From the IMG/VR virus record IMGVR_UViG_3300050821_002122, positions 32,001 to 96,000 of that record: a DNA stretch of 64,000 nucleotides; one strand, 5' to 3'. A program made the translations under genes and the position numbers. The DNA comes from a virus. Of this stretch, positions 16,208 to 40,150 are shown in pieces. The notes beneath the pieces were generated by a model. It did not search any database. It saw only the letters and a list, made by a program, of their open reading frames with translations, and was not told where the DNA came from. How positions within the stretch are numbered: position 1 is the first letter of the stretch; each line of letters starts with the position of its first letter.

Positions 16208-18763
16208 GTGAACAGCCAGCTTACTACCTTCGGGGTCACATTATTTAACGCAAGTCCTACACCGCCTTTTTTGTCAGCGTTCAAGCTGGCAACTGATTAC
16301 AATTTTTTGCCGCAAGAGAGCGATACCGATGTTCACGGCGCTGTGGTGGGTCCAGTCGGTGGCATTCCTTCTGCACCGGAGATTGTCAATGGTAATTTGG
16401 TCAAATACTCTGTCTACCTGGACTTTAGCGTAGGCGATTTTGACTTTGGTAACATCGGACTTTTTCTTGGAAATAATCTGGTATCGCTGAGCGCATCAAC
16501 GACTCCTATCCCTAAAATTGCAGGCGGCATCTCTGGCAATAGCCTGCGCGTTGACATCTACCTATCGATGGTAGGCACAAATTACGAGATGTGGGCAGAT
16601 TTGGCGGAATCCAACAATAGGTTTCAGGTGGCGCGTTTATCCTCGCCTGATCTGATGCCGCCTGCAAAGGACTCGACGCCAAACATGTATGTCATTGCTG
16701 GTGCTGACACCACGCAGAGCAGCATATTGGCATACACCGACCGTGAGTCGTTGTGGAATTTCGACGCTTACCAATTCAGTTCGGTACTGAGTGCACCAAT
16801 CGTTGGTTTCGACAGCACTTCGGTCACGATAGCAACAGCCGACTTCTCCGACGATATTAATCCGGCGTACCTCGGTCAGGTCATTTTGCAGTTCACTACT
16901 GGCACGTTGTACTCGATTTGCCGTTATGTCAGCCACGCAATCCAAAACGGGTCGACCGTAACGTTGGTATTCGTTACTGCGCTTACCGAGACACCGATCG
17001 TCAACGACAAATTCCAAGTCTTCCGCCGCAACGCAGGATCAGTTGAGACTCCGTTGCCAATAGCTACCGCAACCACACTAGGTGGCATCAAGATCGGTAC
17101 TGGTCTGGTGGTCACCCCTGATGGCCTGTGTTCGATTGATCCATCACTGCTAGGCACAGTGACCTCTGTAAATGGTCAGACCGGTACTGTTACAGTCAAT
17201 GCTACCAATCTGCCTGGTCTTTCGGCTGTTGGTAAAAGCGGTCTCTACAGTGATTTGATCGGGGCACCACCAGCGTATGTGTTGCCTCCTATGTCGACCA
17301 GCGTTCGCGGTGGCGCTCGCATTGGCCCATCGGGTAATCTGACCATCTTCGGCATAGATCAACTCGATTTGAGCTTCCAACCAGTCAAGTCAGTCAACGG
17401 TAATTTACCAGATGGCAATGGTCTGGTGACTGTGGCATTGAACGACATTGGTCTCGTGAATCCGCAGGCTCTGCCCACGACGGTCAATCTTGATGCCTAT
17501 ACCACGACTGGACTATTTACTGTGTCGGCTGCTATAGCCCCAAGCTTGGTGAACGCCCCAACAACGAACGATGCGGCTACTTTGGAAGTCGTACCCCTGT
17601 CGGTTACCGGTACTGGTGATTCGATTCAACGTTGGACTACTGCCACTGCTCAGTACTGGCGCAAGTCCACGAGTGGCACGTGGGGTGCATGGAATCAAGC
17701 AGCAGCTTTGAACATAGCAACTACCTCCACGTTGGGTGTCGTTAAAATCGGTAGCGGTTTAGCTATAGCCGTTGATGGTACTCTGACCAATGCATACAAC
17801 CTGCCGGTGGCTACCACATCGCTGCTAGGTGGCGTGCGCGTTGGTGTCGGTCTGACCGTCGATTCTTTCGGCACCATAAGCACTACCAATATCCTGCCTA
17901 TTGCTACTGCAACGGTATTAGGTGGTATAAAAGTTGGCAGCGGTCTTGCTGTTACTACGGATGGGACATTGAGCGTGAGCCTTCCCATTGCATCCATCAC
18001 GACTTTGGGTGTTATCAAGGTTGGTAGCGGATTAGCAATAGCAGGCGACGGTACGTTGAGCGCAAATTCGACATTGCCAACGGCCTCCGCATCGACCTTG
18101 GGTGGCATCAAGATAGGTCCCGGTCTCAGCATCGATAGCAACGGAGTGGTCACTGCATCAACGACCTATACGTTGCCCATAGCGTCGGCCTCTATATTAG
18201 GTGGTATCAAAATCGGTAGCGGGTTGAGCATCGCTGGCGATGGTACGGTATCTGCGTCGTCAACCTACAATCTGCCGATAGCTAGTTCTGTAGTATTGGG
18301 TGGCGTGAAAGTGGGTAGTGGTTTGTCAGTTGCAGGTGATGGTACATTGTCTACCTCTGTTGACCCCAACAACAAGCTGAACGTCATCAGCGGTACTGCA
18401 CAAGGCCTGATGCTCAAGGTTAACGCAATGGGTGTCGTATCGTCGGCTATTAATGGCAGCATGACTACCGCCAACGTACAATCAGCTACCTTCACTGGTG
18501 GTGCCGTAACATGGACGTTGAGTGGATTTGTGGCCAATTCCTATGGTGAGATAGAGTTCTTCTTGACCAACGCAGGACTAGCAACCCACACGTTCCCATC
18601 GGCTGTACACTGGGTGAATCCTGATGGAACCACAACAACCAGCTTTACTACTTACATCGGCAATTTGCGTAGCGGTGCCACGAACTTCCAAACTTCAGGT
18701 ATTGACTTCGTTATCTTCTGGTCGATTGACGGCGGTACTAACATCTACGCGAAGGTGCTGTAA
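16208..18763 (+). CDS. Tail fibre A1 (DUF3751-like baseplate-binding N-terminus, repeat shaft)
   Basis: N-terminal GDFDFGNIGLF motif; repeated LPIAT..TLGGIKIGSGL...DGTL units; C-terminal WSIDGGTNIYAKVL; GTG start with AAGGGG RBS. Confidence 0.8.
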   Translation: MNSQLTTFGVTLFNASPTPPFLSAFKLATDYNFLPQESDTDVHGAVVGPVGGIPSAPEIVNGNLVKYSVYLDFSVGDFDFGNIGLFLGNNLVSLSASTTPIPKIAGGISGNSLRVDIYLSMVGTNYEMWADLAESNNRFQVARLSSPDLMPPAKDSTPNMYVIAGADTTQSSILAYTDRESLWNFDAYQFSSVLSAPIVGFDSTSVTIATADFSDDINPAYLGQVILQFTTGTLYSICRYVSHAIQNGSTVTLVFVTALTETPIVNDKFQVFRRNAGSVETPLPIATATTLGGIKIGTGLVVTPDGLCSIDPSLLGTVTSVNGQTGTVTVNATNLPGLSAVGKSGLYSDLIGAPPAYVLPPMSTSVRGGARIGPSGNLTIFGIDQLDLSFQPVKSVNGNLPDGNGLVTVALNDIGLVNPQALPTTVNLDAYTTTGLFTVSAAIAPSLVNAPTTNDAATLEVVPLSVTGTGDSIQRWTTATAQYWRKSTSGTWGAWNQAAALNIATTSTLGVVKIGSGLAIAVDGTLTNAYNLPVATTSLLGGVRVGVGLTVDSFGTISTTNILPIATATVLGGIKVGSGLAVTTDGTLSVSLPIASITTLGVIKVGSGLAIAGDGTLSANSTLPTASASTLGGIKIGPGLSIDSNGVVTASTTYTLPIASASILGGIKIGSGLSIAGDGTVSASSTYNLPIASSVVLGGVKVGSGLSVAGDGTLSTSVDPNNKLNVISGTAQGLMLKVNAMGVVSSAINGSMTTANVQSATFTGGAVTWTLSGFVANSYGEIEFFLTNAGLATHTFPSAVHWVNPDGTTTTSFTTYIGNLRSGATNFQTSGIDFVIFWSIDGGTNIYAKVL
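17196..17254 (+). repeat. 59-nt exact direct repeat, copy 1 (copy 2 at 20630-20688)
   Basis: TCAATGCTACC...CTCTACAGTGAT identical in fibres A1 and A2. Confidence 0.9.
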
Positions 18764-19635
18764 TGACTCTCATGCGGAAATACAGTAGGGGAGGTATATC
18801 CGTAACACCTCCACCGACCGACGGTGCATATGCGATATTCAAAGCTTCAAGTGGGCTAGCGTCCGCCAAATACATATTCAGCAGCAACTCGGTGAGTGCT
18901 GGACCTGCGCTTACGCAAACTAATACCATCTTGGCCGCAGCAAACACATCATTTGGTATATTTATGTGTTCAGGCAGTACGCTGTCATCCAAGATAGTGT
19001 TCACCACATCAACCGTCGTCAATGGTGCTTCACTGAATTTGGTTAGTGGTAGCGGTGGAGTAGGCGTTGGTAACCAAGACATTGGTTTGTTCTGCGGTAA
19101 CGTGACCGGCAATGCACCAACAGCGACCTACACGTATGCGAACGCGACGGTGGCACCTGGTACTTCACTTAATGCTAACATGGGTGGTGGTGTGGGTGTT
19201 GGTGATAGCACTCGGGCCATAGTCGCATTAGGTAGTGGGACAAGCGGTTCGACCAACACAGAGACCTATGCTTATTCGGATGGGTCTGTTGGCAATGGTA
19301 CGAGCCTGACAACCGATGTAAAGAATGGGGCATCTACGACCAACTCGACTTTTGGCCTCATCGCTGTTGGTGGTAGTGTGGCATCTAAAGTAACCGAGAA
19401 GTACACATTCGCCGACGATTCGGTCACCAGTGGGACACAATTGCTTGCCGCAACATCAACTCTCAAGGCAGCTGGTAATGGAGTGATGGGGATATTTGAG
19501 GTCTCCACGTCAGGTTTAACTAACGCCTATATTTATGCTGGAGATAGCGTGGTGACCGGTACCAACTTGGCGACCTCCATATCTGCAACCAACCCAGCGG
19601 CAGCCAGCAATGGTATCGCTGGTGTAACCACATAA
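18763..19635 (+). CDS. Six-repeat beta-propeller-like protein P1, putative fibre-tip adhesin
   Basis: Six ~43-aa repeats (GIF....T..Y.Y..D.V..G..L); TAATG coupling to fibre A1. Confidence 0.6.
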   Translation: MTLMRKYSRGGISVTPPPTDGAYAIFKASSGLASAKYIFSSNSVSAGPALTQTNTILAAANTSFGIFMCSGSTLSSKIVFTTSTVVNGASLNLVSGSGGVGVGNQDIGLFCGNVTGNAPTATYTYANATVAPGTSLNANMGGGVGVGDSTRAIVALGSGTSGSTNTETYAYSDGSVGNGTSLTTDVKNGASTTNSTFGLIAVGGSVASKVTEKYTFADDSVTSGTQLLAATSTLKAAGNGVMGIFEVSTSGLTNAYIYAGDSVVTGTNLATSISATNPAAASNGIAGVTT

Positions 19636-19644
19636 AGGATTATC

Positions 19645-21972
19645 ATGCAAGTAGCGCTCACAGACTACGCAATCGCATTGCTGCAGGCCTCCACAGGGCC
19701 GATCACCCTCGATAACTACAAGCTAGGCACTGGCGTCAACTATATACCGCAAGCCTCTGATACAGATATTCACGGCAGTCTGGTCTTTACCGGCACACCA
19801 TCTGCACCATCTAGTGCAAACGCCAACATCGTCAAGTACTCCGTCTACCTAGACTACAATACAGGCGACTTCAACTTTGGTGAGTTCGGTCTCTATATCG
19901 GCACTAATCTGTTTGCTCTGGGTGTGGCAACCGAACTGATTGCCAAGATCAAAATGGGTCTCTCGGCTGGTAATTCAATACGCCTCGACATTTATCTGTC
20001 TATGGTGGGTACGAACTACAACATGTGGTTCGATCTCGCTGAGTCGAATAATCAATTCCGAGTAGCTTCGATTCAGTCGCCTGATATGCTGCCCCCGTCG
20101 GCCGATGCGACACCCAACGTGTACATCATAGCTGGTGCAACAAGCCAACAAAGCCCTCTATTGGCCTACACTGATCGTCAAGGTCTGTGGAACTTCGATG
20201 TGTATCAGTATTCGTCGATCTTGTCAGCAACGGTCACTGGTTTCGATTCGCATTCAGTCACTATCAATATAACCGACTATTCCGATAGCATGGTGCCAGC
20301 GTATTTCGGTCAGCTCATTATCGAGTTCATCACCGGCCCCATCTATTCGATTTGCCGCTACATTAAAACCACCATCGTCAGCGGTACTTCAGTGACGTTG
20401 GGCTTCAATACCCCACTAGCCATAACGCCGGTTGTAGGTGATAAGTTCCAGATGTTCACGCGCTCTGTCGGCAGTATCGATCTGCAGGTTCCTATTGCTA
20501 CTGCATCCGTGCTGGGTGGCATCAAGATCGGTACTGGCCTCCAGATCACGCCTGACGGCACTTGCTCCATCGATGCACTGGCTCTTGGTCTGGTGACCTC
20601 AGTCAACGCGATGGTTGGTGATGTCGTCATCAATGCTACCAATCTGCCTGGTCTTTCGGCTGTTGGTAAAAGCGGTCTCTACAGTGATCTGATTGGGGCA
20701 CCAGGACCTTATACACTACCCGTGATGTCGCAGATCATACGCGGTGGTGCAAAATTACCGGCGAACGGCAATCTCGTCATTACTGGTACGGAGGTCCTTG
20801 ATTTGGGTTTTGCACCGGTCAAGAAGGTCAATGGCCTAAGTCCTGATTCGAGTGGTAATGTCGTTCTTGCTGCATCAGTCATTGGTCTTATCAATCCAAC
20901 TGCTATACCAACGTCTGCTGACCTTAATAATTACAAAACCACCGGCTTGTTCAACATCACTGCCGCTGTAAGTTCGACTCTGCTCGATGCGCCACCAATC
21001 GTAGGTTCTGATGCGACACTGGAGGTAGTGCCTCTGACTACTGGTGGTACTGGCGATTCAATCCAACGGTGGACGACTGCAACCGATCAATACTGGCGCA
21101 AGTCGACGGGTTCTAGTTGGAGTGCGTGGCAGCATGTAGGCACTGGCAACATAGCAACTACTTCGACGTTGGGTATCATCAAGGTCGGCAGTGGTCTAGC
21201 GGTAGCTGGTGACGGTACTCTGAGTGCCTCATTACCGATCGCCACAACGAGCGTCGCAGGTATAGTCAAAGCAGGTACTGGCCTCAGTGTGGCTGGTGAC
21301 GGAACGCTGACGATCAACATGAGTGCATTGGCTGTCGCTACTACCTCATCCGTTGGTGTGGTTAAGATCGGTACTGGTATATTGGTCGATGGTGCAGGCA
21401 CCATCAGTGCTGACTTCAGCGCCATTCCTGTGGCCTCTGCAACGGTATTGGGCTCCATCAAAGTCGGTAACGGTTTGGCGATCTCTAGTGGCGTGCTGTC
21501 GTCGAAAGTCTTGACCGTCAACAGTGCGCTACCTGACGGCAGTGGTAACATCACTGTACCATCGGATGCGACGAAATTGAATGTCACCAACGGCGTTGCT
21601 ACTGGTATTCGTATGACGTTCACGAATATTGGTACGATTGGTAGTGGTGGCACAGTCACCATGACTCAATCGGCAGCCAACGTACAGGCTGCTACCTTCA
21701 CAGGCGGCACAGTTACTTGGTCCATGGGTGGGTGGCCAGCAGCCAATACGTATGCTGAGGTCCAGATGCGTCTGGTCAATGCTGGGCTAGCAACTCATAC
21801 TTTCCCCTCTGGAGTGAATTGGGTTAATCCGGATGGAAGTTTGACCACAGTTTTCGCTACCTACATAGGCAACCAACGACCTGGGTTCACCAATTTTCAA
21901 TCGTCTGGTACTGACTTTGTGGTTTTCTGGACTGATAATGGCGGTACCACTATCTACGGTAAGGTGATGTGA
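19645..21972 (+). CDS. Tail fibre A2, paralog of A1
   Basis: Colinear with A1 over N-terminal ~500 aa, fewer shaft repeats, C-terminal WTDNGGTTIYGKVM. Confidence 0.8.
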   Translation: MQVALTDYAIALLQASTGPITLDNYKLGTGVNYIPQASDTDIHGSLVFTGTPSAPSSANANIVKYSVYLDYNTGDFNFGEFGLYIGTNLFALGVATELIAKIKMGLSAGNSIRLDIYLSMVGTNYNMWFDLAESNNQFRVASIQSPDMLPPSADATPNVYIIAGATSQQSPLLAYTDRQGLWNFDVYQYSSILSATVTGFDSHSVTINITDYSDSMVPAYFGQLIIEFITGPIYSICRYIKTTIVSGTSVTLGFNTPLAITPVVGDKFQMFTRSVGSIDLQVPIATASVLGGIKIGTGLQITPDGTCSIDALALGLVTSVNAMVGDVVINATNLPGLSAVGKSGLYSDLIGAPGPYTLPVMSQIIRGGAKLPANGNLVITGTEVLDLGFAPVKKVNGLSPDSSGNVVLAASVIGLINPTAIPTSADLNNYKTTGLFNITAAVSSTLLDAPPIVGSDATLEVVPLTTGGTGDSIQRWTTATDQYWRKSTGSSWSAWQHVGTGNIATTSTLGIIKVGSGLAVAGDGTLSASLPIATTSVAGIVKAGTGLSVAGDGTLTINMSALAVATTSSVGVVKIGTGILVDGAGTISADFSAIPVASATVLGSIKVGNGLAISSGVLSSKVLTVNSALPDGSGNITVPSDATKLNVTNGVATGIRMTFTNIGTIGSGGTVTMTQSAANVQAATFTGGTVTWSMGGWPAANTYAEVQMRLVNAGLATHTFPSGVNWVNPDGSLTTVFATYIGNQRPGFTNFQSSGTDFVVFWTDNGGTTIYGKVM
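20630..20688 (+). repeat. 59-nt exact direct repeat, copy 2
   Basis: Identical to 17196-17254. Confidence 0.9.
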
Positions 21973-22805
21973 TGCTAGCAAAAAAGTTCTTTGGTGCCTA
22001 CGTTCACGTAGCATATGGAACCACTGCTTATTTTATTGCAAGTGGATCAACTGGTATCGATAAATATGATTTTGCTACCGACTCCATCTCTTCTGGCGGA
22101 TCGCTGCTAGGTACTGGTAATGGAGGCGCAGCAGGTAATGGGATATTAAGTATATGGTGGCAAACTACGGGTTCTACCACCTCCAAATACAAGTATGCCA
22201 CGGATACGGTAGTCACCGCCACAAGTTCACCCATAACATCATCTAATGGTAGCGCCACTGGGAATGTCACACAGGGCATATTCACACGCGGTGGTGGTAC
22301 AGCTCTTACAGCACTCTATATTTATAACGCTGATACATTTGTGGCCGCAACATCCACGATCTTCAACGGCAACAACATGGCGGCTATTGGCAACTCCACT
22401 GTGGCAATACTAGCACAAGGTAATGCGACAACCAACACAAATAAATATACATACAGCAGTACCTCAATGGTGGCAGCTACTGCATTGGCCTCCAACGTAA
22501 ACAGCGCAGGTTCCATAACCAACGCTACTGAGGGTATTATCGCAACTGCTGGTTCCAGCGCTACAAATAAATATACATATAGTGGGGATACCACTTCTAC
22601 TGGTGGTAATCTCGTAGTACTTGGCTCCACTGCTGGCGCCGGGGCAGGAAGTGACACATTCGGAATTATTGCCCGAGGTGGTACTGGTTTGCAGGTAAAT
22701 AAATATACGTATGCCGGAGATGTTGTGACGGCAGGCGGTACCATTGTAGGAACTCTACAAGGGCACTGCGCCACGTCGAATGGAACTACGGGAGTGAACA
22801 TCTAG
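21972..22805 (+). CDS. Six-repeat beta-propeller-like protein P2
   Basis: Same repeat as P1; TGATG coupling to fibre A2 (alternative GTG start 21969). Confidence 0.6.
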   Translation: MLAKKFFGAYVHVAYGTTAYFIASGSTGIDKYDFATDSISSGGSLLGTGNGGAAGNGILSIWWQTTGSTTSKYKYATDTVVTATSSPITSSNGSATGNVTQGIFTRGGGTALTALYIYNADTFVAATSTIFNGNNMAAIGNSTVAILAQGNATTNTNKYTYSSTSMVAATALASNVNSAGSITNATEGIIATAGSSATNKYTYSGDTTSTGGNLVVLGSTAGAGAGSDTFGIIARGGTGLQVNKYTYAGDVVTAGGTIVGTLQGHCATSNGTTGVNI

Positions 22806-22831
22806 AAGAGGGTGGTCAGCCCTCTGGGGGA

Positions 22832-23689: not shown

Positions 23690-23952
23690 TGCATTTCCTC
23701 TACGCAGGGAGTATCACAGCCGAGTACAAGCGACCACCGTGTGGGCTGTACGTCTGTGACTTCGTATTCTATATTGAGGTCCATGTCGCTATACTTCAGG
23801 TTGATAGGGATGCCGAGTGATTTGGTCAAATGTGCCATCGCATCACCTAGCGAGCGTTCGTTCTCGATCTGATGCATTAGGTAGTGAGTCACCATATCGA
23901 TGTTACCAATAGCCAAGTAGGCTGATGGTTGGATGAAGATGCCGCAGAACAT
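23686..23952 (-). CDS. Hypothetical protein
   Basis: 88 aa, AAGGAG RBS, ATGA coupling to exonuclease. Confidence 0.65.
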   Translation of the reverse strand: MFCGIFIQPSAYLAIGNIDMVTHYLMHQIENERSLGDAMAHLTKSLGIPINLKYSDMDLNIEYEVTDVQPTRWSLVLGCDTPCVEEMQ

Positions 23953-23970
23953 AGAATTCTCCTTTCGCTC

Positions 23971-25823: not shown

Positions 25824-26570
25824 ATGGGTACAGAATCAACATTCTACTACCCGGTTGACCTTCACAAAGACTCTGGAGTCGTAGCCGCCTTAGCACCACT
25901 GTTGTATAAACTGCCTCTGCAAGCACAAGAGGAAGAAGTGGCGGTTTTGGCTTTAGGAGTTGGTAACCTCTTGCAGGGGTTTTACGTGTACGATAACAAT
26001 CGATGGAAATTCGCTGTGCCAATGCAGCCTATTTCCGTATCTACCATAACAGGTGGTGCGATTGATATTTATGCGAACCCGAGTGCGGATGTAGTCGTGG
26101 ACACATCCGCGACCATTTACCGGAATGGCCAAGTAGTATCAGGCAACGTGGTAAATGCAGGTCCAGCGCTGTATGCTGTTCTGACACCCGGAGCAAACAT
26201 TCCTCCGAAACCGCCTGGTCCTGACTTTTTGGCCTACACCGCAGTCACTGATGTTAGTGGTCACCGTGTAATGAAGATCGCAATAGGAGGTGTCACCTAC
26301 GCGTCTTCGGATAACCTTCTTGATACCAATTTAGTTCTTGGTATCAGTATGGGTGCTGCTGTGGCCGGAGCAACAGTAGATGTGCAACTGAATGGTGTAT
26401 TAACTGAGCCAAGCTGGAGCTGGATACCGGGCCTCCCAGTGTTCTGCGGCGTTGATGGATTCATCACACAAGTTGCACCAACTGCTGGGTTTGTAATCAT
26501 AGTAGGTCAAGTAATATCACCGCAATCAATCGTCGTAACCATTAAAACCCCTATCATCGTCGGAGATTAA
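25824..26570 (+). CDS. Virion protein: shared N-terminal module plus cement/decoration-like C-terminus
   Basis: First ~125 aa align by eye with N-termini of 28025 and 34121; C-terminal LGISMGAAVAGATVDVQLNG...GLPVFCGVDGFITQ. Confidence 0.55.
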   Translation: MGTESTFYYPVDLHKDSGVVAALAPLLYKLPLQAQEEEVAVLALGVGNLLQGFYVYDNNRWKFAVPMQPISVSTITGGAIDIYANPSADVVVDTSATIYRNGQVVSGNVVNAGPALYAVLTPGANIPPKPPGPDFLAYTAVTDVSGHRVMKIAIGGVTYASSDNLLDTNLVLGISMGAAVAGATVDVQLNGVLTEPSWSWIPGLPVFCGVDGFITQVAPTAGFVIIVGQVISPQSIVVTIKTPIIVGD

Positions 26571-26574: not shown

Positions 26575-27183
26575 ATGGGCACTCTGTCTAGCAAGAAGTT
26601 TCTCAAGAACGTAACTGGTACCATCACTGAAGAGGCAGCGCTGCTCACCAGTGCTGGCGCGGCGGATGCTAACAAGCTCCCTGCACTGGGTGCGACTGGT
26701 GTACTGGACATCACGATCCTGAACGGTATTGTGGTCTCGACCGGTCCTACCAATGCTGGTCAGACTCCGATTTTGGATTCGACTGGTCGTCTGGACGTTT
26801 CGGTGATGCCAGTTGGTATCGTACCAGAAACCTCCTCGATCATCGCATCCGAAGCATTGGCTGCTGGCGATCTGGTCAATGTGTGGAACAACTCTGGTGT
26901 CGCCAATGCTCGCAAAGCTGACGGCTCGACCAGCGGTAAAGAATGCCACGGCTTCGTGCTGTCGGCGTTCAGTGCCTCGGCAACTGCACTAGTCTACTTC
27001 GAGGGCAGCAACACTCAAGTCAGCGGCTTGACACCAGGTCTGCAATTCCTGAGCGGTACGGCTGCTGGTAAGTCGAGCACCACGGCAGCTAGTGCAAGTG
27101 GCAGCACTGTTCAACGAGTAGGTCTCGCCACGACAGCGACCAACCTGGTGTTCCAAGCGGAACAGCCAATCGTCTTGGCATAA
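26575..27183 (+). CDS. Putative capsid decoration/cement-like protein
   Basis: ASEALAAGDLVNV...KADG...HGFV...VYFEG..GLTPG..FLS pattern typical of small phage decoration domains. Confidence 0.5.
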   Translation: MGTLSSKKFLKNVTGTITEEAALLTSAGAADANKLPALGATGVLDITILNGIVVSTGPTNAGQTPILDSTGRLDVSVMPVGIVPETSSIIASEALAAGDLVNVWNNSGVANARKADGSTSGKECHGFVLSAFSASATALVYFEGSNTQVSGLTPGLQFLSGTAAGKSSTTAASASGSTVQRVGLATTATNLVFQAEQPIVLA

Positions 27184-32524: not shown

Positions 32525-32542
32525 TTTTATAGAGAGGTCCAT

Positions 32543-33448
32543 ATGACACTGATGGGCATGAGAGGTGCAATGTCTGTATCTGGGTTCGGCAGGTTCCCGC
32601 ATAGTAGTGGGCCACCTGCCGGCAGCTTTGGGTTGTTTGCATCAGCGCAGACAACGCCAACAGCAAGGCAGACATCGGCATACAAATTCTCAACTGATAC
32701 CGCATCTGCTGGCACGCAGTTGGCCACGCAGGTTGCTGTGTCCGGGGCTGGTGCTGGTAACGTCACGCAAGGCGTTATCTGTATCGGTAACACGTTAAAA
32801 ACAACCAACGTCTATACGTATGCGTCGAATGCGGTAGTGGCAGGCGGGGCATTAGCGTCTGCGTTAAATACTGGCGCTGGTGCAGGTAACGATACAACCG
32901 CTCTGTTTGTCAGCGGCAAGAATAATGGCAGTTCGGCATCCAATCTGACCAACATCTTCGACTATGCTAGTAGCACATCTGGTGCCGGTACTAACCTGGT
33001 TAATTCAACCCAGGTTCCAGCAGCGTGCGGCATCCTAGCATATGTCATTATTGCCACAGCAGCGGTTAATGGCTCTGCGTCAAAAACGACAAACAAGTAC
33101 ACCTACAGCAGTGGTGCAACGGCTGCCGCTACCGCGTTGGCCAATAACTATGCGTCTGGTAACGCCGTGTCGAATGCTAACGTGGGTGTGTTCTTCGGTC
33201 AAGCTACTGTTAGTTCTCGTTACGTATGGTCTGGGGAAACATCAGTCGCTGGTGCAACCATTCCTATTTCTATCTCATTCGGAGCATCAGTAGGCAACGA
33301 TACGACAGGGGTGGTAACAACTGGAAGCAATGTGCAGGCATATAAATACAACTACGCCGCAGACTCGTTTTCTGCAGGTGGAGTACTGCCACAAACCGTA
33401 GGTGCTGGTGCTGGTGCCTCGCAAGGTGTAACTGGCGTCAGTATGTAA
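32543..33448 (+). CDS. Six-repeat beta-propeller-like protein P3
   Basis: Same repeat family as P1/P2; follows fibre B1. Confidence 0.6.
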   Translation: MTLMGMRGAMSVSGFGRFPHSSGPPAGSFGLFASAQTTPTARQTSAYKFSTDTASAGTQLATQVAVSGAGAGNVTQGVICIGNTLKTTNVYTYASNAVVAGGALASALNTGAGAGNDTTALFVSGKNNGSSASNLTNIFDYASSTSGAGTNLVNSTQVPAACGILAYVIIATAAVNGSASKTTNKYTYSSGATAAATALANNYASGNAVSNANVGVFFGQATVSSRYVWSGETSVAGATIPISISFGASVGNDTTGVVTTGSNVQAYKYNYAADSFSAGGVLPQTVGAGAGASQGVTGVSM

Positions 33449-33474
33449 CCCTTCTCATAACAAAGGATTTAAAG

Positions 33475-34098
33475 ATGAACAGCAAGCCTCATCGTCAAAA
33501 CAGTGGTTTTCAACTTCGTTACTTTCTGGCTGGCGATTGCCACACATCGGATGGTGCCTATGTATTGATGTATGGTCAGAAGATCGACATCGAAACCAAG
33601 TTGCGGCATGCCGAAAGTCAACTGCTGCGTCGCCAAGGTAAGATCATGGCAGCACAAGAGATCATCGACACACCGGGCTTGAAACCATCGGAGTACCTGA
33701 TGGCAAAGGCAGACAAGTTAGAACAGGAAGCAGATGTACCCACATGGGAAATGAATCTGAAGGGCGCACATCAAGAACTCCAAGACATCGTAGAGATCAT
33801 GGAGGAGTTGAAACCGCAATGCAAGTATGCGGACCTTGATATATTGGAGCAATCAGAGGCTAGCCAGCAAGAAGAGTGGCTGCTGGAGCTGATGAACCGT
33901 GCGGAGAACTTTTTCTTGTCGGTGGGTTCGATACCGCATGACCATCTCCAGACGATGCGCTCTCACCCTGAGTTCAAAGAGAAGTTGGTTCCATACATCG
34001 CAGAAATTCACAAGAAACTGAGCATAGCAATGGGGCCCGCTGGCGGCGGTATGGTCCAAGCTCTGAGCAATGTAAGCAAGCCTTTACTGTTGGAATGA
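33475..34098 (+). CDS. Coiled-coil protein in the fibre cluster
   Basis: 207 aa, helical and charged, unlike the T/G/A/S-rich neighbours; AAGGA RBS. Confidence 0.6.
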   Translation: MNSKPHRQNSGFQLRYFLAGDCHTSDGAYVLMYGQKIDIETKLRHAESQLLRRQGKIMAAQEIIDTPGLKPSEYLMAKADKLEQEADVPTWEMNLKGAHQELQDIVEIMEELKPQCKYADLDILEQSEASQQEEWLLELMNRAENFFLSVGSIPHDHLQTMRSHPEFKEKLVPYIAEIHKKLSIAMGPAGGGMVQALSNVSKPLLLE

Positions 34099-34120
34099 CC
34101 TTAACCTTGGAAACAATAAA

Positions 34121-37100
34121 ATGACTACTCCATCGCAATTCTACTATCCAGTAACAATGCACCGTGACGCGGCAGCAAGTGATACGCTGGCTCCTGTCGT
34201 CATGACTCTCCCACTCGTGCAGTCTGTGGAGGATTTGGTTATCATCTTGCTGAACAGCGTTGGTGAGCAGCCCCAAGGTCTCTACGTCTTCGATGGCATT
34301 CAGTGGCGGTTCGCTATGCCGATGCCAGCAGTAAGTGCTTCGATCATTTTCGCAAGTTCGCTGGACGTCTACATCAATGCAACGTTGGATGTTACGCTCG
34401 ATCCATCGACCATTGTGTACAAAAATGGTCAGCAACAACCTGGTGATGTAATCACTCATGGCAATGCTGTGTACGCTGTTCGCACTCCACCAGCAGGTGG
34501 TGGCGGTGGCGGTGCAGTTACTTCTGTCAATGGTCAGACCGGTACGGTAACTATCAATGCTGCGAATCTGCCAGGTTTGGCTGTCGTTGGTAAGACTGGC
34601 CAATACGCTGATCTGATCGGTGCCCCAGGCCCGTACACGTTGCCTGCGGCAACTACTTCCACGCTCGGTGGTGTGATCGTATCGCCATCAGGTAATCTGT
34701 CGGTCAACGGCAGTGGCACTGTGGACATCAGTTCGGCTCTCTTGGCTTCTATTGCTAGCAAGCTGAATAGCGCTGTTCCAATCGGTACCGGTACTACGCT
34801 CATCGACAGTGTAACCAGCGGTATCTTGACGCTGCGCACTATCACTGCAGGTAGTGGCATCTCGCTGGTGAACAGCAGTGGCACGATCACCGTGGCCTAC
34901 GTGCCTACCATTGCCACTGCAACTGCGCTAGGTAGCGTGATAGTACCTTCGTCGTCGAACTTGAGCGTTGACTCGATGGGTAACATCGACATCACTGGCG
35001 CTTTGATGACGACTATCGCGGGTAAACTGAACAATGTGGTCAACAGCGGTGGTGGAGTATCGGTCGTGCGTTCCTCGACTGGCGGCACTGGCACGTTCAA
35101 ATCGTTGGCCCAAGGCAGCAATATCACCATCGTCGATGACGGTGCTGGCACATTGACCATCGCATCCACGGCTGCTGGAGGCTCGGTAACGCTGACTGGC
35201 GATGTGACGGGTTCAGGTACATCCACCGTTGCAACCACATTGGCTGCATCTGGTGTAACTGCTGGTACCTATACCAAGGTCACGGTTGACGCTAAAGGTC
35301 GTGTTACTGTCGGCGCAGCACTGTCTGGTACTGATGTGAATACGGCACTAGGCTACACGCCATACAACGGTACAACCAACCCTAACGGATACATTGCCGC
35401 CAATCAAGCCATCACTGTCACTGGTGATGCAACAGGTTCTGGTACCACGGCAATCACTCTGACCCTGGCCGCCTCCGGCGTAACTGCTGGTACTTACACC
35501 AAAGTTACCGTGAATGCTAAAGGCTTGGTGACCGCAAGCTCTGCGCTGTCGGCTGGTGACATCAACACTGCGTTGGGCTACACTGCGTACAACGGTGGCA
35601 CCAATCCAAATGGCTTCATCGCAGCCAACCAGACTATCACTTTGAGCGGTGATGCTACCGGTAGCGGTTCGACTGCTATTACTGTAGCGCTTGCCAACAG
35701 CGGTGTATCGGCCGGCACTTACAAGTCGGTGACCGTCAACGCCAAAGGTCTCGTGACTGGTGGCACCAATCCTACGACCCTTGCTGGTTATGGTATCACC
35801 GATGCTTTGAGCAGCCTGACAGGCGGCAGTGTCGCTGGTAACATTACGATGACGAGTGGCGCAACTGTAACAGGTCTGCCTACACCTGTGAACCCATCGG
35901 ATGCTGCTAACAGGAGCTATGTAGATAACGCTATTGCTAGCGTGGCCTCTGGCACTTCATGGCGTAACAATGCGCAGGTCGCTTCGACTGGCAATCTGAC
36001 GCTGAGCGGTCTTCAGACCATCGACGGCTATACCACTTTGGCCAATGACCGCGTGCTAGTCAAAGACCAAACGAATCAAACAGAGAACGGTGTTTATGTC
36101 GCAGCATCCGGCGCGTGGACTCGTGCTACGGACACTGACACTGGTGCAGAAATCATTGGTATGGCCATCTTGGTCATCAATGGTACTGCGAATGCGCTGA
36201 GTCAATGGATCAACACGAACACTGGCAGTATTGTTGTCGGCACTACGAACATTACCTACACCAAATTGCAGGGTAACGGCACCATCTATACTGCTGGTAC
36301 TGGCCTGACACTGACTGGTCAAGTGTTCTCGATTACCAATACAGGCGTTACGGCTGGTACCTACACCAAGGTTACTGTCAACGCACAAGGTCAGGTAACG
36401 ACAGGCGCTGCTTTGGCCTCGTCGGATATTACTACTGCACTGGGCTTCACGCCTTACAATTCGACCAATCCGAGTGGCTATATCTCCGCTAACCAGACAA
36501 TTACGTACACTGGTGACGCCACAGGTTCGGGAACCACTGCTGTAACGTTGACTCTGGCCGCCTCAGGTGTTACGGCTAGCACGTATAACAACGTTACCGT
36601 CGATGCTAAAGGTCGTGTGACCAATGGTTCCAACGTTGCGTACCTGACGGCTAACCAAACCATCACGGTGTCTGGTGACGCGACGGCAAGTGGTTCGACC
36701 ACTCTAGCTCTGACTTTGGCTGCTTCCGGCGTAACTGCTGGTACGTACAAATCGGTCACCGTCAACGCTAAAGGTCTCGTAACGGCTGGCACCAACCCAA
36801 CTACGTTGGCCGGCTTCGGTATCACGGACGCGCTGTCGACCTCGGGTGGTTCGCTGACAGGCACCATCACTGTATCTGGTGGCGGTGCGATCACTGGTCT
36901 GCCTACCCCATCCGCAGCATCTGATGCATCGACCAAAGGTTATACGGACGGAGTCGGTACTGCGACCTACAACAGCGTTTCGTGGAAATTGATGGCAGCG
37001 GCTGCGACTACTGCAAACATCACGTTGAGCGGCTTGCAGGCAATCGACGGTTACACCACGTTAGCAGGTGATCGTGTACTGGTCAAGAATCAGACCACGC

Positions 37101-39211
37101 AAAGTGCTAATGGCCTGTACGCTGCGGCGGCTGGTGCGTGGACTCGCGTTGCTGACGCATCGACTGGTGCTAACATTCTGAACTCGATTGTGCTGGTTCT
37201 GAATGGCACTGTCAATGCGCTGACTCAGTGGGCTAATACCAACACAAGCACGATCACGGTTGGTACGACGGCAATCACTTACGGTCAGACGGCCGCAGCA
37301 GGTACTGCTTACACTGCGGGTACTGGCTTGACCCTGACGGGTGCGCAGTTCTCGATCACGAACACTGCGGTAACCCCCGGCACATACACCAAAGTAACGG
37401 TGAATGCGCAAGGCCAGGTAACGTTGGGTGCGTCGCTCGCTAGCGCAGATGTAACAGGCGCGTTGGGCTTCACACCGTATAATGCGACTAACCCTAGCGG
37501 CTACATCAGCGGTAACCAAACCATTACCTACACGGGTGATGCAACTGGTAGTGGTACGACGGCAGTGACGCTGACTCTGGCAGCAAGTGGCGTAACGGCG
37601 GGTACGTACAACAATGTTACCGTCAACGCGAAAGGTTTGGTGACCGGTGGCTCGAACATCGGATACCTGACAGCTAACCAAACGATCACGCTGAGTGGTG
37701 ACGTAACAGGTTCTGGTACTACTGCGATCACTGCTACTCTGGCAAACACCGCAGTGACTGCTGGTTCCTACGGCGATGCAACTCACGTTCCGACGTTCAC
37801 TGTCGATGCGAAAGGTCGCTTGACTGCGGCTGGTAGCGTCGCGATCTCGGCTGGCGTAAGCTCGGTATTCGGACAGACAGGTGCGGTGCCAAACTTGAGT
37901 GGTGACGTAACAACCTCAGGTTCCAGCGCAACGACACTGGCTGCATCTGGTGTTACGGCAGGTACCTATACCAAAGTCACTGTCAACGCGAAAGGTTTGG
38001 TAACGACTGGTGCAGCGCTGGCGTCGTCTGATGTTACGACGGCTCTGGGTTATACTCCGCTGAACAAAGCTGGTGACACCATGAGCGGTGCCTTCAACCA
38101 GGCTCCGACCGTCAACGTTGCGTCTGCTGCTACGACCCTAATCGGTGCTGCGGCTGCGAATGACATCAGCATCACTGGCTCGACGAATATCACAGCATTC
38201 GATACGGCTCCAGCTGGTGCGCTGCGTACTCTGCGCTTCATCAACGGTGGCATGACGATTACCAATAATGGTGCTACCTTGCTGTTGCCGACTGGCGCCA
38301 ATATCACAGTCGCAGCGAACGACCTCGCTGAGTTCTGCTCCAAAGGTAGTGGTGTGTGGGTCTGTAACTGGTACACCCGTGCTTCCGGTGCTGCGTTAGT
38401 AGCCTCCACGGATGCGACGAAGCTGTCGTTGTCCGGCGGTACGATGACCGGTGCCTTGAACAACGCAGCTACCGTAACGTTGGCCTCGGCAGCGACGCTG
38501 AACATTGGCGCTGCGGCTGCGAATGACATTTCAGTTACTGGTACCACCACTATCACTGCGTTCGACACCATTGCAGCAGGTGCTGTTCGCCGTCTGACAT
38601 TCACTGGTATCCTGACGTTGACCTACAATGCAACATCGCTGATTATCCCCGGCGCAGCTAGCGTAACGACGGCTGCTGGCGATACTGCTCAGTTCACGTC
38701 GCTGGGTGGTGGTAACTGGCGCTGCGATGACTACACGAAGGCAAGTGGCCAGGCCTTAGTGGGTGGTGGCAGCCCATTCTCCACTACGCAGGTATTCAAT
38801 GGTTCCACATCAGTGCAAGCCGCCAAATTCACGAACGTTGCTGAGTTGGTACTGGTTACTGCTGCTGTTCCATCGGCTACCTTCAACGTATCGGCTGGCG
38901 CTGTGCAGTTGTTCACGACTGCGGCAACCGCTAACTGGACGTTGAACTTCCAGTATTCGGCTGGTACCACGCTGAATGCAGCAATGGCTGTGGGTGATTC
39001 GATGACAGTGGCTCAGATCACCAATCAGGGCGCAACCGCATTCTTCCCAACGGCGTTCACGATTGATGGTACAACGGTAACTCCTCTGTGGCAAGGTGGT
39101 GTCGCTCCTGCGGCAGGTAATGCAAGTGGTCGCGATGTCTACACGTTCACGATCATCAAAACTGCGGCGTCGACTTACACCGTGTTGGCTGCACAGACCC
39201 AGTATAAATAA
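34121..39211 (+). CDS. Long fibre B2 (1696 aa), paralog of B1
   Basis: Same modules in different copy number: many more shaft repeats, two DRVLVK.QT domains, two 118-aa domains; C-terminal TIIKTAASTYTVLAAQTQYK. Confidence 0.8.
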   Translation: MTTPSQFYYPVTMHRDAAASDTLAPVVMTLPLVQSVEDLVIILLNSVGEQPQGLYVFDGIQWRFAMPMPAVSASIIFASSLDVYINATLDVTLDPSTIVYKNGQQQPGDVITHGNAVYAVRTPPAGGGGGGAVTSVNGQTGTVTINAANLPGLAVVGKTGQYADLIGAPGPYTLPAATTSTLGGVIVSPSGNLSVNGSGTVDISSALLASIASKLNSAVPIGTGTTLIDSVTSGILTLRTITAGSGISLVNSSGTITVAYVPTIATATALGSVIVPSSSNLSVDSMGNIDITGALMTTIAGKLNNVVNSGGGVSVVRSSTGGTGTFKSLAQGSNITIVDDGAGTLTIASTAAGGSVTLTGDVTGSGTSTVATTLAASGVTAGTYTKVTVDAKGRVTVGAALSGTDVNTALGYTPYNGTTNPNGYIAANQAITVTGDATGSGTTAITLTLAASGVTAGTYTKVTVNAKGLVTASSALSAGDINTALGYTAYNGGTNPNGFIAANQTITLSGDATGSGSTAITVALANSGVSAGTYKSVTVNAKGLVTGGTNPTTLAGYGITDALSSLTGGSVAGNITMTSGATVTGLPTPVNPSDAANRSYVDNAIASVASGTSWRNNAQVASTGNLTLSGLQTIDGYTTLANDRVLVKDQTNQTENGVYVAASGAWTRATDTDTGAEIIGMAILVINGTANALSQWINTNTGSIVVGTTNITYTKLQGNGTIYTAGTGLTLTGQVFSITNTGVTAGTYTKVTVNAQGQVTTGAALASSDITTALGFTPYNSTNPSGYISANQTITYTGDATGSGTTAVTLTLAASGVTASTYNNVTVDAKGRVTNGSNVAYLTANQTITVSGDATASGSTTLALTLAASGVTAGTYKSVTVNAKGLVTAGTNPTTLAGFGITDALSTSGGSLTGTITVSGGGAITGLPTPSAASDASTKGYTDGVGTATYNSVSWKLMAAAATTANITLSGLQAIDGYTTLAGDRVLVKNQTTQSANGLYAAAAGAWTRVADASTGANILNSIVLVLNGTVNALTQWANTNTSTITVGTTAITYGQTAAAGTAYTAGTGLTLTGAQFSITNTAVTPGTYTKVTVNAQGQVTLGASLASADVTGALGFTPYNATNPSGYISGNQTITYTGDATGSGTTAVTLTLAASGVTAGTYNNVTVNAKGLVTGGSNIGYLTANQTITLSGDVTGSGTTAITATLANTAVTAGSYGDATHVPTFTVDAKGRLTAAGSVAISAGVSSVFGQTGAVPNLSGDVTTSGSSATTLAASGVTAGTYTKVTVNAKGLVTTGAALASSDVTTALGYTPLNKAGDTMSGAFNQAPTVNVASAATTLIGAAAANDISITGSTNITAFDTAPAGALRTLRFINGGMTITNNGATLLLPTGANITVAANDLAEFCSKGSGVWVCNWYTRASGAALVASTDATKLSLSGGTMTGALNNAATVTLASAATLNIGAAAANDISVTGTTTITAFDTIAAGAVRRLTFTGILTLTYNATSLIIPGAASVTTAAGDTAQFTSLGGGNWRCDDYTKASGQALVGGGSPFSTTQVFNGSTSVQAAKFTNVAELVLVTAAVPSATFNVSAGAVQLFTTAATANWTLNFQYSAGTTLNAAMAVGDSMTVAQITNQGATAFFPTAFTIDGTTVTPLWQGGVAPAAGNASGRDVYTFTIIKTAASTYTVLAAQTQYK

Positions 39212-39219
39212 TGGGTAAT

Positions 39220-39250
39220 GGGAGAAGGGTAGCAATATCCTTCTCCCTTT
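39220..39250 (+). terminator. Hairpin/attenuator between fibre B2 and P4
   Basis: GGGAGAAGGGTA-GCAA-TATCCTTCTCCC then TTTC (short U-tract). Confidence 0.6.
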
Positions 39251-39271
39251 CACACAGAAAGAGAGTAAATT

Positions 39272-40150
39272 ATGCCAGTTATAGCAGCACGTGGGGCGTT
39301 CGCAGCCAGGGCATATGGTTCTTACGCTATCCCGACTTTAGTACAAGGTAGCCAGGGAGTATTTGCCTCATACTCCGGTTTCGCGCATGTGGTGAAATAT
39401 CTGTTTGGTAACGATGCCATAGCGTCCTCGACAGCAAGTTCAGCAGCGTCTAGTTACGGGGGTGCGATCAGTAACTACTCGGAAGGCATCTACGTGCTTG
39501 GTAATGGATCAGCCATTACCCGTAAATACACCTTTGCGTTTGATCGTATTATGGTGGGCGTATCGCTATCCAATGCACCAGGTGTTGGTTCTGGTTGTGG
39601 TAACTCGACTGGTGGTGTGTTCGCTATAGCCATACATGGTGTGCTGTCCAACAAATACACTTATGCTGGTGACGTAGTAGCTGCTGGTGGCTCATTCACT
39701 GCTGGTACGTACTATGGTGCCAGCGCTGGCACCTCAACATTCGGTATCTTCGCCCTTGGTAACACTACGACCACTACGAACGTCTACACATACAGTGGTG
39801 ACTCAGTGGCAGGAGGTACTGCGTTGACCACTGCCACCATCGCTGGTTGTGCTGTTGGCAACTCTACTGTGGGTGTATTCAGCATGGGTAACGCGCTGAC
39901 CACGACCAGTACTTACACTTACAGTGGTAGTACGGTTGCCGCTGGAACCGCACTTACAGCAGCCGCATCGTCAAACATGGCAGCCGGTAACGATACGGAA
40001 GGCATCATAGCCATCAGCAATTCCACAACAACCATGAATAAATATACGTATAGTGGCAACTCTGTGGCTACCGCAACTGCACTGTCTGTTGCACCCCCTA
40101 ACCAAAATGCCGCTGGTATGTCCAATGGTATAACTGGCGTCACCGCCTAA
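39272..40150 (+). CDS. Six-repeat beta-propeller-like protein P4
   Basis: Most regular repeats (GIF.LGN.TTTTN.YTYSGD.V..GTAL); follows fibre B2. Confidence 0.65.
   Translation: MPVIAARGAFAARAYGSYAIPTLVQGSQGVFASYSGFAHVVKYLFGNDAIASSTASSAASSYGGAISNYSEGIYVLGNGSAITRKYTFAFDRIMVGVSLSNAPGVGSGCGNSTGGVFAIAIHGVLSNKYTYAGDVVAAGGSFTAGTYYGASAGTSTFGIFALGNTTTTTNVYTYSGDSVAGGTALTTATIAGCAVGNSTVGVFSMGNALTTTSTYTYSGSTVAAGTALTAAASSNMAAGNDTEGIIAISNSTTTMNKYTYSGNSVATATALSVAPPNQNAAGMSNGITGVTA

What the first reader, a model, noticed from the sequence alone, without database searches (positions are those of the whole stretch)
16208..40150. Four fibre + six-bladed propeller pairs with covarying docking ends: a modular multi-adhesin system
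Seen: each of four fibre genes (A1, A2, B1, B2) is immediately followed by a 277-301-aa gene made of six ~43-aa repeats with a shared C-terminal S(N/Q)G..GV motif. Loops between conserved strands differ among the four. The partner N-terminus tracks the fibre C-terminal class: A fibres end W..DGGT/NGGT.IY.KV and partners begin MTLMRKY/MLAKKF with TAATG/TGATG coupling; B fibres end TIIKTAA.T..V...QFK/QYK and partners begin with RGA.....(F/Y)G. Known: T-even gp38 adhesins are separate proteins docked on the gp37 tip through their N-terminus. Inference: a plug-in design in which a Kelch-like propeller receptor-binding protein docks by a short leader on its cognate fibre tip, giving at least four exchangeable specificities on one virion. 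I know of no characterised example with this architecture.
Basis: partly seen in the sequence, partly recalled or inferred. Interest (0 to 1): 0.82.

Follow-up and report, generated by a model that had tools for sequence, protein, structure and literature searches.

The report
Plug-in propeller heads on phage fibres
A soil relative of Ralstonia phage RSL1 encodes four tail fibres, each followed by a separate six-bladed propeller protein whose short leader matches the fibre's end piece. One of these end-piece/leader pairs recurs in over a hundred other phage contigs with dozens of unrelated heads, so it looks like a general plug-and-socket way of swapping host-recognition parts, though binding itself is not yet shown.

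Summary
Four fibre genes (860, 775, 1499 and 1696 aa) are each followed by a 277-301 aa gene built from six 43-residue repeats. AlphaFold2 folds one of them (pB2) as a six-bladed Kelch-like propeller (pLDDT 86; TM 0.73-0.82 to Keap1).

The matching of partner leader to fibre end is real and reaches far beyond this window. The B-type end domain (last ~140 aa) has 113 relatives in IMG/VR. In about 50 of 59 non-redundant loci, the next gene starts with the same ~16-residue leader (consensus MPxLxTFGGxSARGFG). After the leader the proteins fall into 37 unrelated groups: glycine-rich, lectin-like and propeller heads among them. Cultured examples are Roseobacter phage CRP-3 and cyanophages Syn30 and P-SSM7. 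The A-type pair is seen only in RSL1-like relatives.

Partners diverge much faster than the fibre ends, and forms with the propeller fused at the C-terminus of a fibre exist.

My best reading (about 0.6) is separately encoded receptor-binding heads docked by a leader. This works like T-even gp37/gp38 or the Klebsiella-phage branching domain and docking peptide, but with a new socket, leader and head. Docking, virion presence and receptor binding are untested.

I did not test whether they are the same family.

The parts
16181..18763 (+). Fibre A1 (860 aa). A-type end domain at about 18251-18760.
   Evidence: ORF. PHROG fibre-type hits and a weak tail-collar fibre N-terminal hit. 49% identical to A2. 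The A-type end has about 25 full-coverage relatives.
18763..19635 (+). Propeller pA1 (290 aa), A-type leader MTLMRKY.
   Evidence: Matches the propeller profile at E 1e-72. The orthologue in L216 is 45% identical, while the fibre ends are 73% identical.
19645..21972 (+). Fibre A2 (775 aa). Tail-collar fibre N-terminal domain (PF12571) and A-type end.
21972..22805 (+). Propeller pA2 (277 aa from the ATG; an in-frame GTG lies at 21969), leader MLAKKFF.
28025..32524 (+). Fibre B1 (1499 aa). B-type end domain at 32081-32521.
   Evidence: (phrog_5906 at residues 1368-1498).
32543..33448 (+). Propeller pB1 (301 aa), B-type leader.
33475..34098 (+). w207: a 207-aa helical protein of unknown family that travels with propeller genes. 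Candidate propeller-specific assembly factor.
   Evidence: 46-55% identical to the ORF just downstream of propellers in 13 contigs. Present in 69 of 79 propeller loci. Among 80 B-end loci it is present only in the 5 that carry a propeller head. No Pfam or PHROG hit.
34121..39211 (+). Fibre B2 (1696 aa). B-type end domain at 38768-39208.
   Evidence: AF2 model of the end domain: pLDDT 88.5, all-beta.
39220..39247 (+). 12-bp hairpin (GCAA loop) between the B2 stop and the pB2 start.
   Evidence: Centroid -20.8 kcal/mol, z -3.47, 0 of 200 shuffles fold as well. Sequence. Its function is not tested.
39272..40150 (+). Propeller pB2 (292 aa), B-type leader MPVIAARGAFAARAYG.
   Evidence: AF2 pLDDT 86, pTM 0.85, 24-25 strands, residues 1-15 below pLDDT 50. 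Foldseek finds six-bladed Kelch domains.
40167..40733 (+). w188: a DUF4376 protein, the more conventional candidate for a fibre assembly chaperone.
   Evidence: PF14301 at E 5e-15. PHROG tail-fibre families. Its homologue follows the fused fibre-propeller gene in L063.

Best explanation
Each fibre ends in a conserved socket domain, of A or B type. The next gene encodes a monomeric six-bladed Kelch-like propeller whose first 7-16 residues are a plug specific for that socket. The plug is disordered on its own.

I infer that the plug binds the distal end of the assembled fibre, so the propeller becomes the outermost, host-contacting head. This would work like gp38 on the gp37 tip in T2/T6/S16-type phages, or like the docking peptide of RBP2 on the branching domain of RBP1 in Klebsiella podophages.

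I infer that the face of the propeller carrying the two variable, indel-rich loops of each blade is the ligand-binding side. The fibre and socket stay conserved while heads are exchanged or diverge, which gives this phage four head variants. w207 and the DUF4376 protein w188 are the likelier assembly helpers.

Shown: fold, gene order, socket/plug co-occurrence, diversity of heads. Inferred: binding, virion location, receptor recognition.
For: 1. Fold. The AF2 model of pB2 has pLDDT 86 and matches Keap1/KLHL Kelch domains and designed six-blade propellers at TM 0.73-0.82.

2. The B socket and plug occur together in many different phage contigs. 113 IMG/VR loci hold the end domain. In 46 of 59 non-redundant loci by a loose pattern, and in about 50 by eye, the next gene begins with the leader. 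A strict motif is found in 29 of 48 next genes against 2 of 239 other ORFs, p 9e-25. Conservation stops after about residue 17.

3. The heads behind that leader fall into 37 BLAST-unrelated groups among 53. They include Gly_rich_2 (10 of 40), Laminin_G_3 lectin-like, weak GP38-adhesin and ALK glycine-rich hits, and propellers. A conserved fibre end with hypervariable neighbours is what an outward-facing adhesin predicts, not a chaperone that moulds the fibre end.

4. The socket can be the end of a 1500-1700 aa fibre or a stand-alone 100-180 aa protein, and is still followed by a B-leader propeller. L037, L058, L086 and L092 show this, at 46-52% identity to the B1/B2 ends.

5. A type. Six A-end fibres in syntenic RSL1-like contigs are each followed at once by a propeller starting ML.(K/R)K(F/Y)(F/L). 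Fibres with other ends have other leaders.

6. Partners diverge faster than sockets. A1 against L216a: 73% (end) against 45% (partner). A2 against L216b: 72% against 32%. Within this phage, paralogous partners are 31-37% identical and the fibres 42-49%.

7. Fused forms place the propeller at the C-terminus of fibre-like or lectin-rich virion-type proteins.

8. Variation is concentrated in loops L2 and L4, with 57 and 680 inserted residues against 3 and 0 in L1 and L3.

9. Kelch-type propellers are already known in virions. CBB_552 was found by mass spectrometry (PMC5259590). phiKZ gp131 has a distal propeller (PMC13250141).
Against: - No direct evidence exists of binding, of virion incorporation or of a receptor.
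- BcepSaruman, a relative, has a single homologue (gp110) that stands alone among genes on the opposite strand, not beside a fibre gene.
- phiRSL1, Motura and BCSR5 gave no match to the propeller profile in that search, and a phiRSL1 fibre that shares part of the A1 C-terminal region carries a Peptidase_S74 domain.
- In the syntenic contig L015, the second fibre has no partner.
- Contig L014 has three propeller genes in tandem. The two complete ones share one B leader and the first is cut off at the contig end. This does not fit a strict one fibre, one head rule.
- The position just downstream of a fibre gene is also typical of assembly chaperones.
- The A-type evidence comes from related phages and may reflect shared descent only.
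- The end-domain fold has only middling structural matches (best Z 6.9), so it gives no mechanistic anchor.
Confidence: 0.6

Rival explanations
1. The partners are fibre assembly chaperones, like Mu gpU, P2 gpG, lambda Tfa, T4 gp38 or Pam3 gp25. They would bind the fibre end during folding and be absent from virions, or present only incidentally.
For: The gene lies immediately after the fibre gene. The A pairs have TAATG and TGATG overlaps of the kind associated with translational coupling. Chaperones that embrace the distal fibre are documented (PMC9608196).
Against: - The fibre end is conserved while the partner bodies are unrelated: 37 groups among 53, including lectin-like and glycine-rich adhesin-type domains. 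A body that moulds a conserved end should itself be conserved.
- Propellers occur fused at the C-terminus of fibres.
- The partners match no chaperone family.
- The locus has other chaperone candidates, the DUF4376 protein w188 and w207.
- In L016 a separate 177-aa protein sits between fibre and propeller. It is a chaperone candidate by position only.
Confidence: 0.17
2. The propellers are virion or accessory proteins that do not sit on the fibre tip. They might be mounted elsewhere, such as on the baseplate, the side of a fibre or whiskers, or act as free lectins. The leader would then serve another step, such as targeting to an assembly site.
For: BcepSaruman gp110 lies far from any fibre gene. 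Most family members carry larger N-terminal anchors of their own (fn3, or the G.W.L...G.WP module) instead of a short leader, and are not preceded by a long fibre. That N-terminal module is shared with a lectin-like protein of phage DSL-LC04. Kelch-like proteins in CBB were discussed in connection with tail whiskers (PMC5259590).
Against: It does not explain why the short leaders co-occur so strictly with one particular end domain encoded just upstream, whether that domain is fused to a fibre or free.
Confidence: 0.15
3. The apparent covariation within this window is only a by-product of tandem duplication of fibre-plus-partner units, with no contact between the two ends.
For: A1/A2 and B1/B2 are clear paralogue pairs. 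The A-type pairs all come from syntenic relatives. Relatives carry one or two A pairs, so duplication does occur.
Against: - The partner bodies do not cluster by A or B class. pA1 is as close to pB2 (36.7%) as to pA2, yet the leaders do follow the class.
- For the B class, the module boundary lies inside the partner gene, after residue ~17, in many contigs whose heads are unrelated. Simple duplication cannot produce that.
Confidence: 0.05

Closest known systems
T-even long tail fibre gp37 with separately encoded tip adhesin gp38 (T2, T6, S16, PP01)
   Same: A separate small gene directly after the distal fibre gene. An N-terminal attachment part and a variable specificity part. The fibre C-terminal subtypes and adhesin N-terminal subtypes are always matched, as lock and key (PMC3157838).
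   Different: The partners do not match Pfam GP38. The head is a six-bladed propeller, not a polyglycine sandwich. The attachment element is a 7-16 residue leader rather than a domain. The socket domain shows no relation to gp37 that I could detect.
Branched receptor-binding proteins of Klebsiella podophages KP32, K11 and KP34: branching domain of RBP1 plus conserved docking peptide of RBP2
   Same: A short conserved N-terminal peptide on the next-encoded protein mounts interchangeable heads on a domain of the preceding protein. This has been validated experimentally (PMC13352976; model in PMC6872550).
   Different: There the dock is an internal T4gp10-like domain near the virion anchor, and the heads are depolymerase tailspikes. 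Here the dock is the extreme C-terminal domain of a long fibre. Structural likeness of that domain to gp10 or CBA120 TSP4 domains is weak (Z 4.8).
Kelch-type and other propellers in phage virions: CBB_552 of Pectobacterium phage CBB, phiKZ gp131, the five-bladed platform of Staphylococcus phage RBPs
   Same: A beta-propeller as a virion or fibre-associated module proposed to bind the host (PMC5259590, PMC13250141, PMC12917162). CBB and BcepSaruman proteins are among the best structural matches.
   Different: gp131 has seven blades and is fused to its fibre protein. The staphylococcal platform has five blades and is internal. For CBB, neither location nor partner is known. None is described with a socket and leader.
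Tail fibre assembly chaperones (Mu gpU, P2 gpG, lambda Tfa; DUF4376 proteins; Pam3 gp25)
   Same: Encoded right after the fibre gene, and bind its distal part.
   Different: No sequence match for the partners. The bodies are hypervariable next to a conserved fibre end. The locus has its own DUF4376 protein.

Membership tests
Kelch-repeat beta-propeller (Pfam Kelch families; Keap1/KLHL type) | Six blades of four antiparallel strands forming a closed propeller | tested here: met
   AF2 model of pB2: pLDDT 86, 24-25 strands. Foldseek TM 0.73-0.82 and E about 1e-11 to Keap1, KLHL and designed six-blade propellers. Only pB2 was folded. The other three partners align with it over their full length.
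Kelch-repeat beta-propeller (Pfam Kelch families; Keap1/KLHL type) | Sequence match to a Kelch repeat profile | tested here: not met
   No Pfam family at E up to 0.1 for any of the four partners. 8-12% identity in the structural alignments. So the fold is alike, but sequence membership is not shown.
T-even gp38 tail fibre adhesin (PF05268) | Sequence match to the GP38 profile, with glycine-rich motifs and hypervariable segments | tested here: not met
   No hit for the four partners. Two of 40 other leader-bearing heads hit GP38 weakly, at E 1e-4.
T-even gp38 tail fibre adhesin (PF05268) | Gene directly after the distal fibre gene, with N-terminal subtype matched to the fibre C-terminal subtype | tested here: met
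T-even gp38 tail fibre adhesin (PF05268) | Bound to the fibre tip in the virion, where it determines the receptor | not testable with these tools
   Needs virion proteomics, structure or genetics.
Tail fibre assembly chaperones (Caudo_TAP, Phage_tail_APC, DUF4376) | Sequence match to a chaperone family | tested here: not met
   No Pfam or PHROG hit for the partners. The neighbouring w188 does match DUF4376.
Branching domain (T4gp10-like) plus docking peptide system | Socket domain with a T4 gp10-like fold | tested here: inconclusive
   Foldseek lists T4 gp10 (2fl8_A) at E 0.21, TM 0.29 by query length. VIA-align gives Z 4.8 for CBA120 TSP4 residues 79-180, and its best hit is the Pa223 capsid spike at Z 6.9. 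All are below the level that separates real relatives from common arrangements.
Branching domain (T4gp10-like) plus docking peptide system | Short conserved N-terminal peptide on otherwise unrelated next-encoded proteins | tested here: met
   Consensus MPxLxTFGGxSARGFG, then no conservation. 37 unrelated body groups.

The most novel reading that the evidence does not exclude
The B-type end domain and its 16-residue leader form a portable docking code that has not been described. Phages as different as T4-like cyanophages, Roseobacter phage CRP-3 and soil RSL1-like large myoviruses would use it to mount dozens of unrelated receptor-binding heads on a conserved fibre end. The six-bladed propellers, which travel with their own helper gene w207, would be one such head class. 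If so, the leader alone would identify the true host-recognition proteins in many uncultured phages and would mark a natural junction for exchanging heads.
Probability: 0.45. Interest if true: 0.8.

Novelty: new variant of a known kind. Interest (0 to 1): 0.66.

Why it matters
Host range of tailed phages is set by the outermost fibre parts, and these are the hardest to recognise in sequence.

A short sequence rule would point to the receptor-binding proteins in many environmental phage genomes, including cultured marine models where both genes are still annotated as hypothetical. The rule is a conserved ~140-residue fibre end followed by a gene that opens with a 16-residue leader.

It would also add a third natural plug-and-socket design to the two known ones, gp37/gp38 and the branching domain with its docking peptide. 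And it would assign a role to a phage-borne six-bladed propeller family that has no name in Pfam or PHROGs.

Tried and rejected
Complex prediction:
- Three copies of the B2 end domain with residues 1-30 of pB2, both with my own alignments, gave no verdict: score 0.03 against a mark of 0.32, and the controls were not run. This is no evidence either way.

Searches that found nothing:
- Megablast of the whole region and tblastn of pB2 against 50,697 phage records found nothing.
- Pfam and PHROGs gave nothing for the four partners.
- A profile search of solved structures gave nothing for the propeller family and only chance-level hits for the fibre ends.
- The propeller profile found nothing in the records of phiRSL1, Motura, BCSR5, CRP-3, Syn30 or P-SSM7.
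- The protein atlas gave no usable relative for w207, only helical hairpins at TM below 0.5.
- Literature searches found no paper on this socket, this leader or this propeller family.

Weak or uninformative results:
- Foldseek and VIA-align on the end-domain model gave only middling matches.
- The promoter and terminator scan was at shuffle level.
- Two soil metagenome runs hold the region. No RNA holder is listed. The laid contigs were near-identical fragments and showed no partner alleles.

Ideas rejected:
- I considered that the partners cluster by fibre class. They do not.
- I considered that strands are much better conserved than loops among the four paralogues. They are not.

Full report
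WHAT THE WINDOW IS

The window is bases 32001-96000 of a 189,689-bp IMG/VR virus record. Its baseplate wedge protein is 51-56% identical to those of Ralstonia phage phiRSL1, Achromobacter phage Motura and Burkholderia phages BCSR5, BcepSaruman and BcepSauron. Two soil metagenome runs hold the region. It is therefore a soil relative of the RSL1 group of large myoviruses.

The fibre genes form a plus-strand block. Replication genes on the minus strand lie to the left: clamp loader, SbcC-like protein and a PD-(D/E)XK nuclease. Baseplate genes on the minus strand lie to the right. An exonuclease, an endolysin and small ORFs separate the A pairs from the B pairs.

THE OBSERVATION

- pB2 has six anchors exactly 43 residues apart.
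- The partners are 31-37% identical to one another and do not cluster by fibre class.
- The fibres are 49% (A1/A2) and 42% (B1/B2) identical.
- The record has no further propeller gene, A end, B end or B leader.

FOLD OF THE PARTNERS

None of the partners matches Pfam or PHROGs. I built an alignment of 34 family members. With it, AlphaFold2 folds pB2 with pLDDT 86 and pTM 0.85 into 24-25 strands. Residues 1-15 are below pLDDT 50.

Foldseek finds six-bladed Kelch domains (Keap1, KLHL) and designed six-blade propellers at TM 0.73-0.82, with only 8-12% identity. Among viral models the best matches are the "kelch-motif" protein of BcepSaruman, uncultured myovirus proteins, cyanophage proteins and a virion protein of phage CBB.

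From the strand order, the first strand (residues 28-33) would complete the last blade, and the shared C-terminal motif would be that blade's final strand. This is inferred.

Across the family, the loops after strands C and A hold almost all insertions (57 and 680 inserted residues) and have the highest entropy. The other two loops are short and conserved. In an up-and-down sheet, alternate loops lie on the same face. So one face is variable and one is conserved. This is an inference from topology.

THE FAMILY

A single-sequence search of 1.84 billion cluster representatives finds 345 clusters at E up to 0.001 and 145 at E up to 1e-10. IMG/VR holds 193 relatives.

Most members carry one of a few N-terminal modules:
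- MSKRYQGG plus an fn3 domain (about 395 aa)
- MSNRWPGG ... G.W.L...G.WP (about 340 aa)
- MPSYSG.W.L (about 318 aa)
- the short B-type leader (about 307-327 aa)

The second module is shared with a lectin-like protein of phage DSL-LC04.

Fused forms exist:
- a 693-aa protein in a 230-kb contig, with a fibre-type N-terminus and a C-terminal propeller (L062-L065)
- a 1620-aa protein with two propellers and a glycine-rich domain, beside a peptidase G2 gene
- proteins that join the propeller to ConA-like lectin, SPRY, fn3, DUF2612 or glycine-rich domains

THE KEY RESULT: THE B SOCKET AND ITS LEADER

In small viral contigs, propellers with the B leader are preceded by a stand-alone ORF of 100-180 aa, not by a long fibre. 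That ORF is 46-52% identical to the last ~140 residues of B1 and B2 and ends in the same ...TQFK.

I then searched with the end domain itself and found 113 relatives in IMG/VR, of which 80 were fetched.

- The domain ends proteins of 157 to 904 aa.
- In 46 of 59 non-redundant loci by a loose pattern, and in about 50 by eye, the next gene starts with the leader. It usually starts 6-16 nt downstream or overlaps by one base.
- The leader consensus is MPxLxTFGGxSARGFG, and conservation stops after about residue 17.
- A strict motif is present in 29 of 48 next genes against 2 of 239 other ORFs of the same loci (Fisher p 9e-25).
- Only five of the 80 fetched loci have propeller heads.
- The bodies fall into 37 BLAST-unrelated groups among 53.
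- By Pfam, the bodies include Gly_rich_2 (10 of 40), a ConA-like lectin domain, DUF7483, and weak GP38-adhesin and ALK glycine-rich hits.

Cultured phages carry the same pair under "hypothetical" or "sericin-like" names:
- Roseobacter phage CRP-3: gp30, with a fibre-type N-terminus, followed by gp29, which starts MPFLASFGGGSARGF
- cyanophage Syn30: gp41 and gp40
- Prochlorococcus phage P-SSM7: 041 and 042

The module boundary therefore lies inside the downstream gene, just after the leader. That is what selection to keep leader and socket together would produce.

Within the class there is a further hint. Ends finishing in K go with R or K at leader position 7 in 4 of 4 pairs, against 1 of 34 for ends finishing in A. 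This was not corrected for relatedness.

THE A SOCKET AND ITS LEADER

About 25 proteins share the whole A-type end. In four further contigs, syntenic with this window, five A-end fibres are each followed at once by a 277-292 aa gene. Together with A1 and A2 that makes seven A-end pairs.

The four new partners for which DNA was available are propellers by profile (E 1e-25 to 1e-55). With pA1 and pA2 they make six pairs compared, and all six partners start ML.(K/R)K(F/Y)(F/L) or MTLMRKY. Relatives whose fibres have other ends have other leaders (L015, L042).

Orthologous comparisons show the socket is far better conserved than the head: 73% against 45%, and 72% against 32%. Relatives carry one or two A pairs. 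These phages are related, so the A-type evidence is weaker than the B-type evidence.

ACCESSORY GENES

The 207-aa ORF after pB1 is 46-55% identical to the ORF directly after propeller genes in many contigs.

- It is present in 69 of 79 propeller loci.
- Among 80 B-end loci it is present only in the five that have propeller heads.
- It therefore follows the head, not the socket.
- It has no named family and is probably helical.

The ORF after pB2 is a DUF4376 protein. A strong hairpin lies between B2 and pB2.

INTERPRETATION

The most economical reading is a plug-and-socket system. A conserved distal domain of the fibre receives the leader of a separately encoded head, and the head contacts the host.

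The argument against a pure chaperone role is that the fibre end is conserved while the neighbouring bodies are unrelated and of adhesin type. In addition, the propeller occurs fused at the C-terminus of fibres.

The points that do not fit are listed in full in the Against line. In brief: the isolated homologue in BcepSaruman, the partner-less fibre in L015, the tandem propellers in L014, and the complete lack of physical evidence.

COMPARISON WITH WHAT IS KNOWN

The principle is established for T-even gp37/gp38, including the matching of subtypes (PMC3157838). It is also established for the Klebsiella-phage branching domain and docking peptide (PMC6872550, PMC13352976). Propellers are known in virions of CBB and phiKZ (PMC5259590, PMC13250141).

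I found no description of three things: this socket domain (PHROG 5906, function unknown), this leader, and the use of six-bladed propellers as separately encoded heads with a helper gene of their own. I therefore file it as a new variant of a known kind.

I saw cyanophage proteins among the structural matches. I did not test whether that family is the same.

Noticed in passing
window 33475-34098: A 207-aa protein of no known family follows propeller genes in 69 of 79 viral loci. Among 80 B-end loci it occurs only where the head is a propeller. It may be a propeller-specific helper.
   Followed up: partly
window 39220-39247: A 12-bp hairpin with a GCAA loop lies in the 60-nt gap between the B2 stop and the pB2 start (z -3.47). 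Only three U follow it, so it may be an attenuator or an RNA-stability element that sets the ratio of fibre to head.
   Followed up: partly
window 42058-43698 (minus strand): A fifth fibre-like gene (546 aa) has the tail-collar fibre N-terminal domain and a weak, sub-threshold hit to the glycine-rich domain (Gly_rich_2) at its C-terminal end. This domain is the commonest head type behind the B leader elsewhere.
   Followed up: no
L014:1-2264: Three propeller genes lie in tandem with no fibre between them. The two complete ones begin with the same B-type leader (MPILGTRGSLA). They may be alternative heads for one socket.
   Followed up: no
L212 (Roseobacter phage CRP-3), L213 (Syn30), L214 (P-SSM7): Cultured marine phages carry the B-type end domain followed by a leader-bearing gene with a non-propeller head. 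Both genes are annotated as hypothetical, structural or 'sericin-like'.
   Followed up: partly
L013:11455-12396 (BcepSaruman gp110): This relative's only family member is a lone plus-strand gene amid minus-strand nucleotide-metabolism and hypothetical genes, far from the fibre genes.
   Followed up: partly
L015:8109-10517; P0131 (phiRSL1): In relatives, fibres related to the A fibres have other ends. One has no partner gene. The phiRSL1 fibre, which shares the tail-collar N-terminal domain and part of the A1 C-terminal region, carries a Peptidase_S74 domain instead.
   Followed up: no
L025:5324-5911; L215:3245-3997: Putative homing-endonuclease genes lie directly upstream of propeller or fibre genes. 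L215 has a Pfam LEM-3 GIY-YIG match. L025 is judged by eye only, and its product starts with the same MPSYSG as the propeller that follows.
   Followed up: no
window 25824-26570 and 26575-27183: Two adjacent paralogous ORFs (both phrog_4368, function unknown) lie between the endolysin and the B fibres.
   Followed up: no
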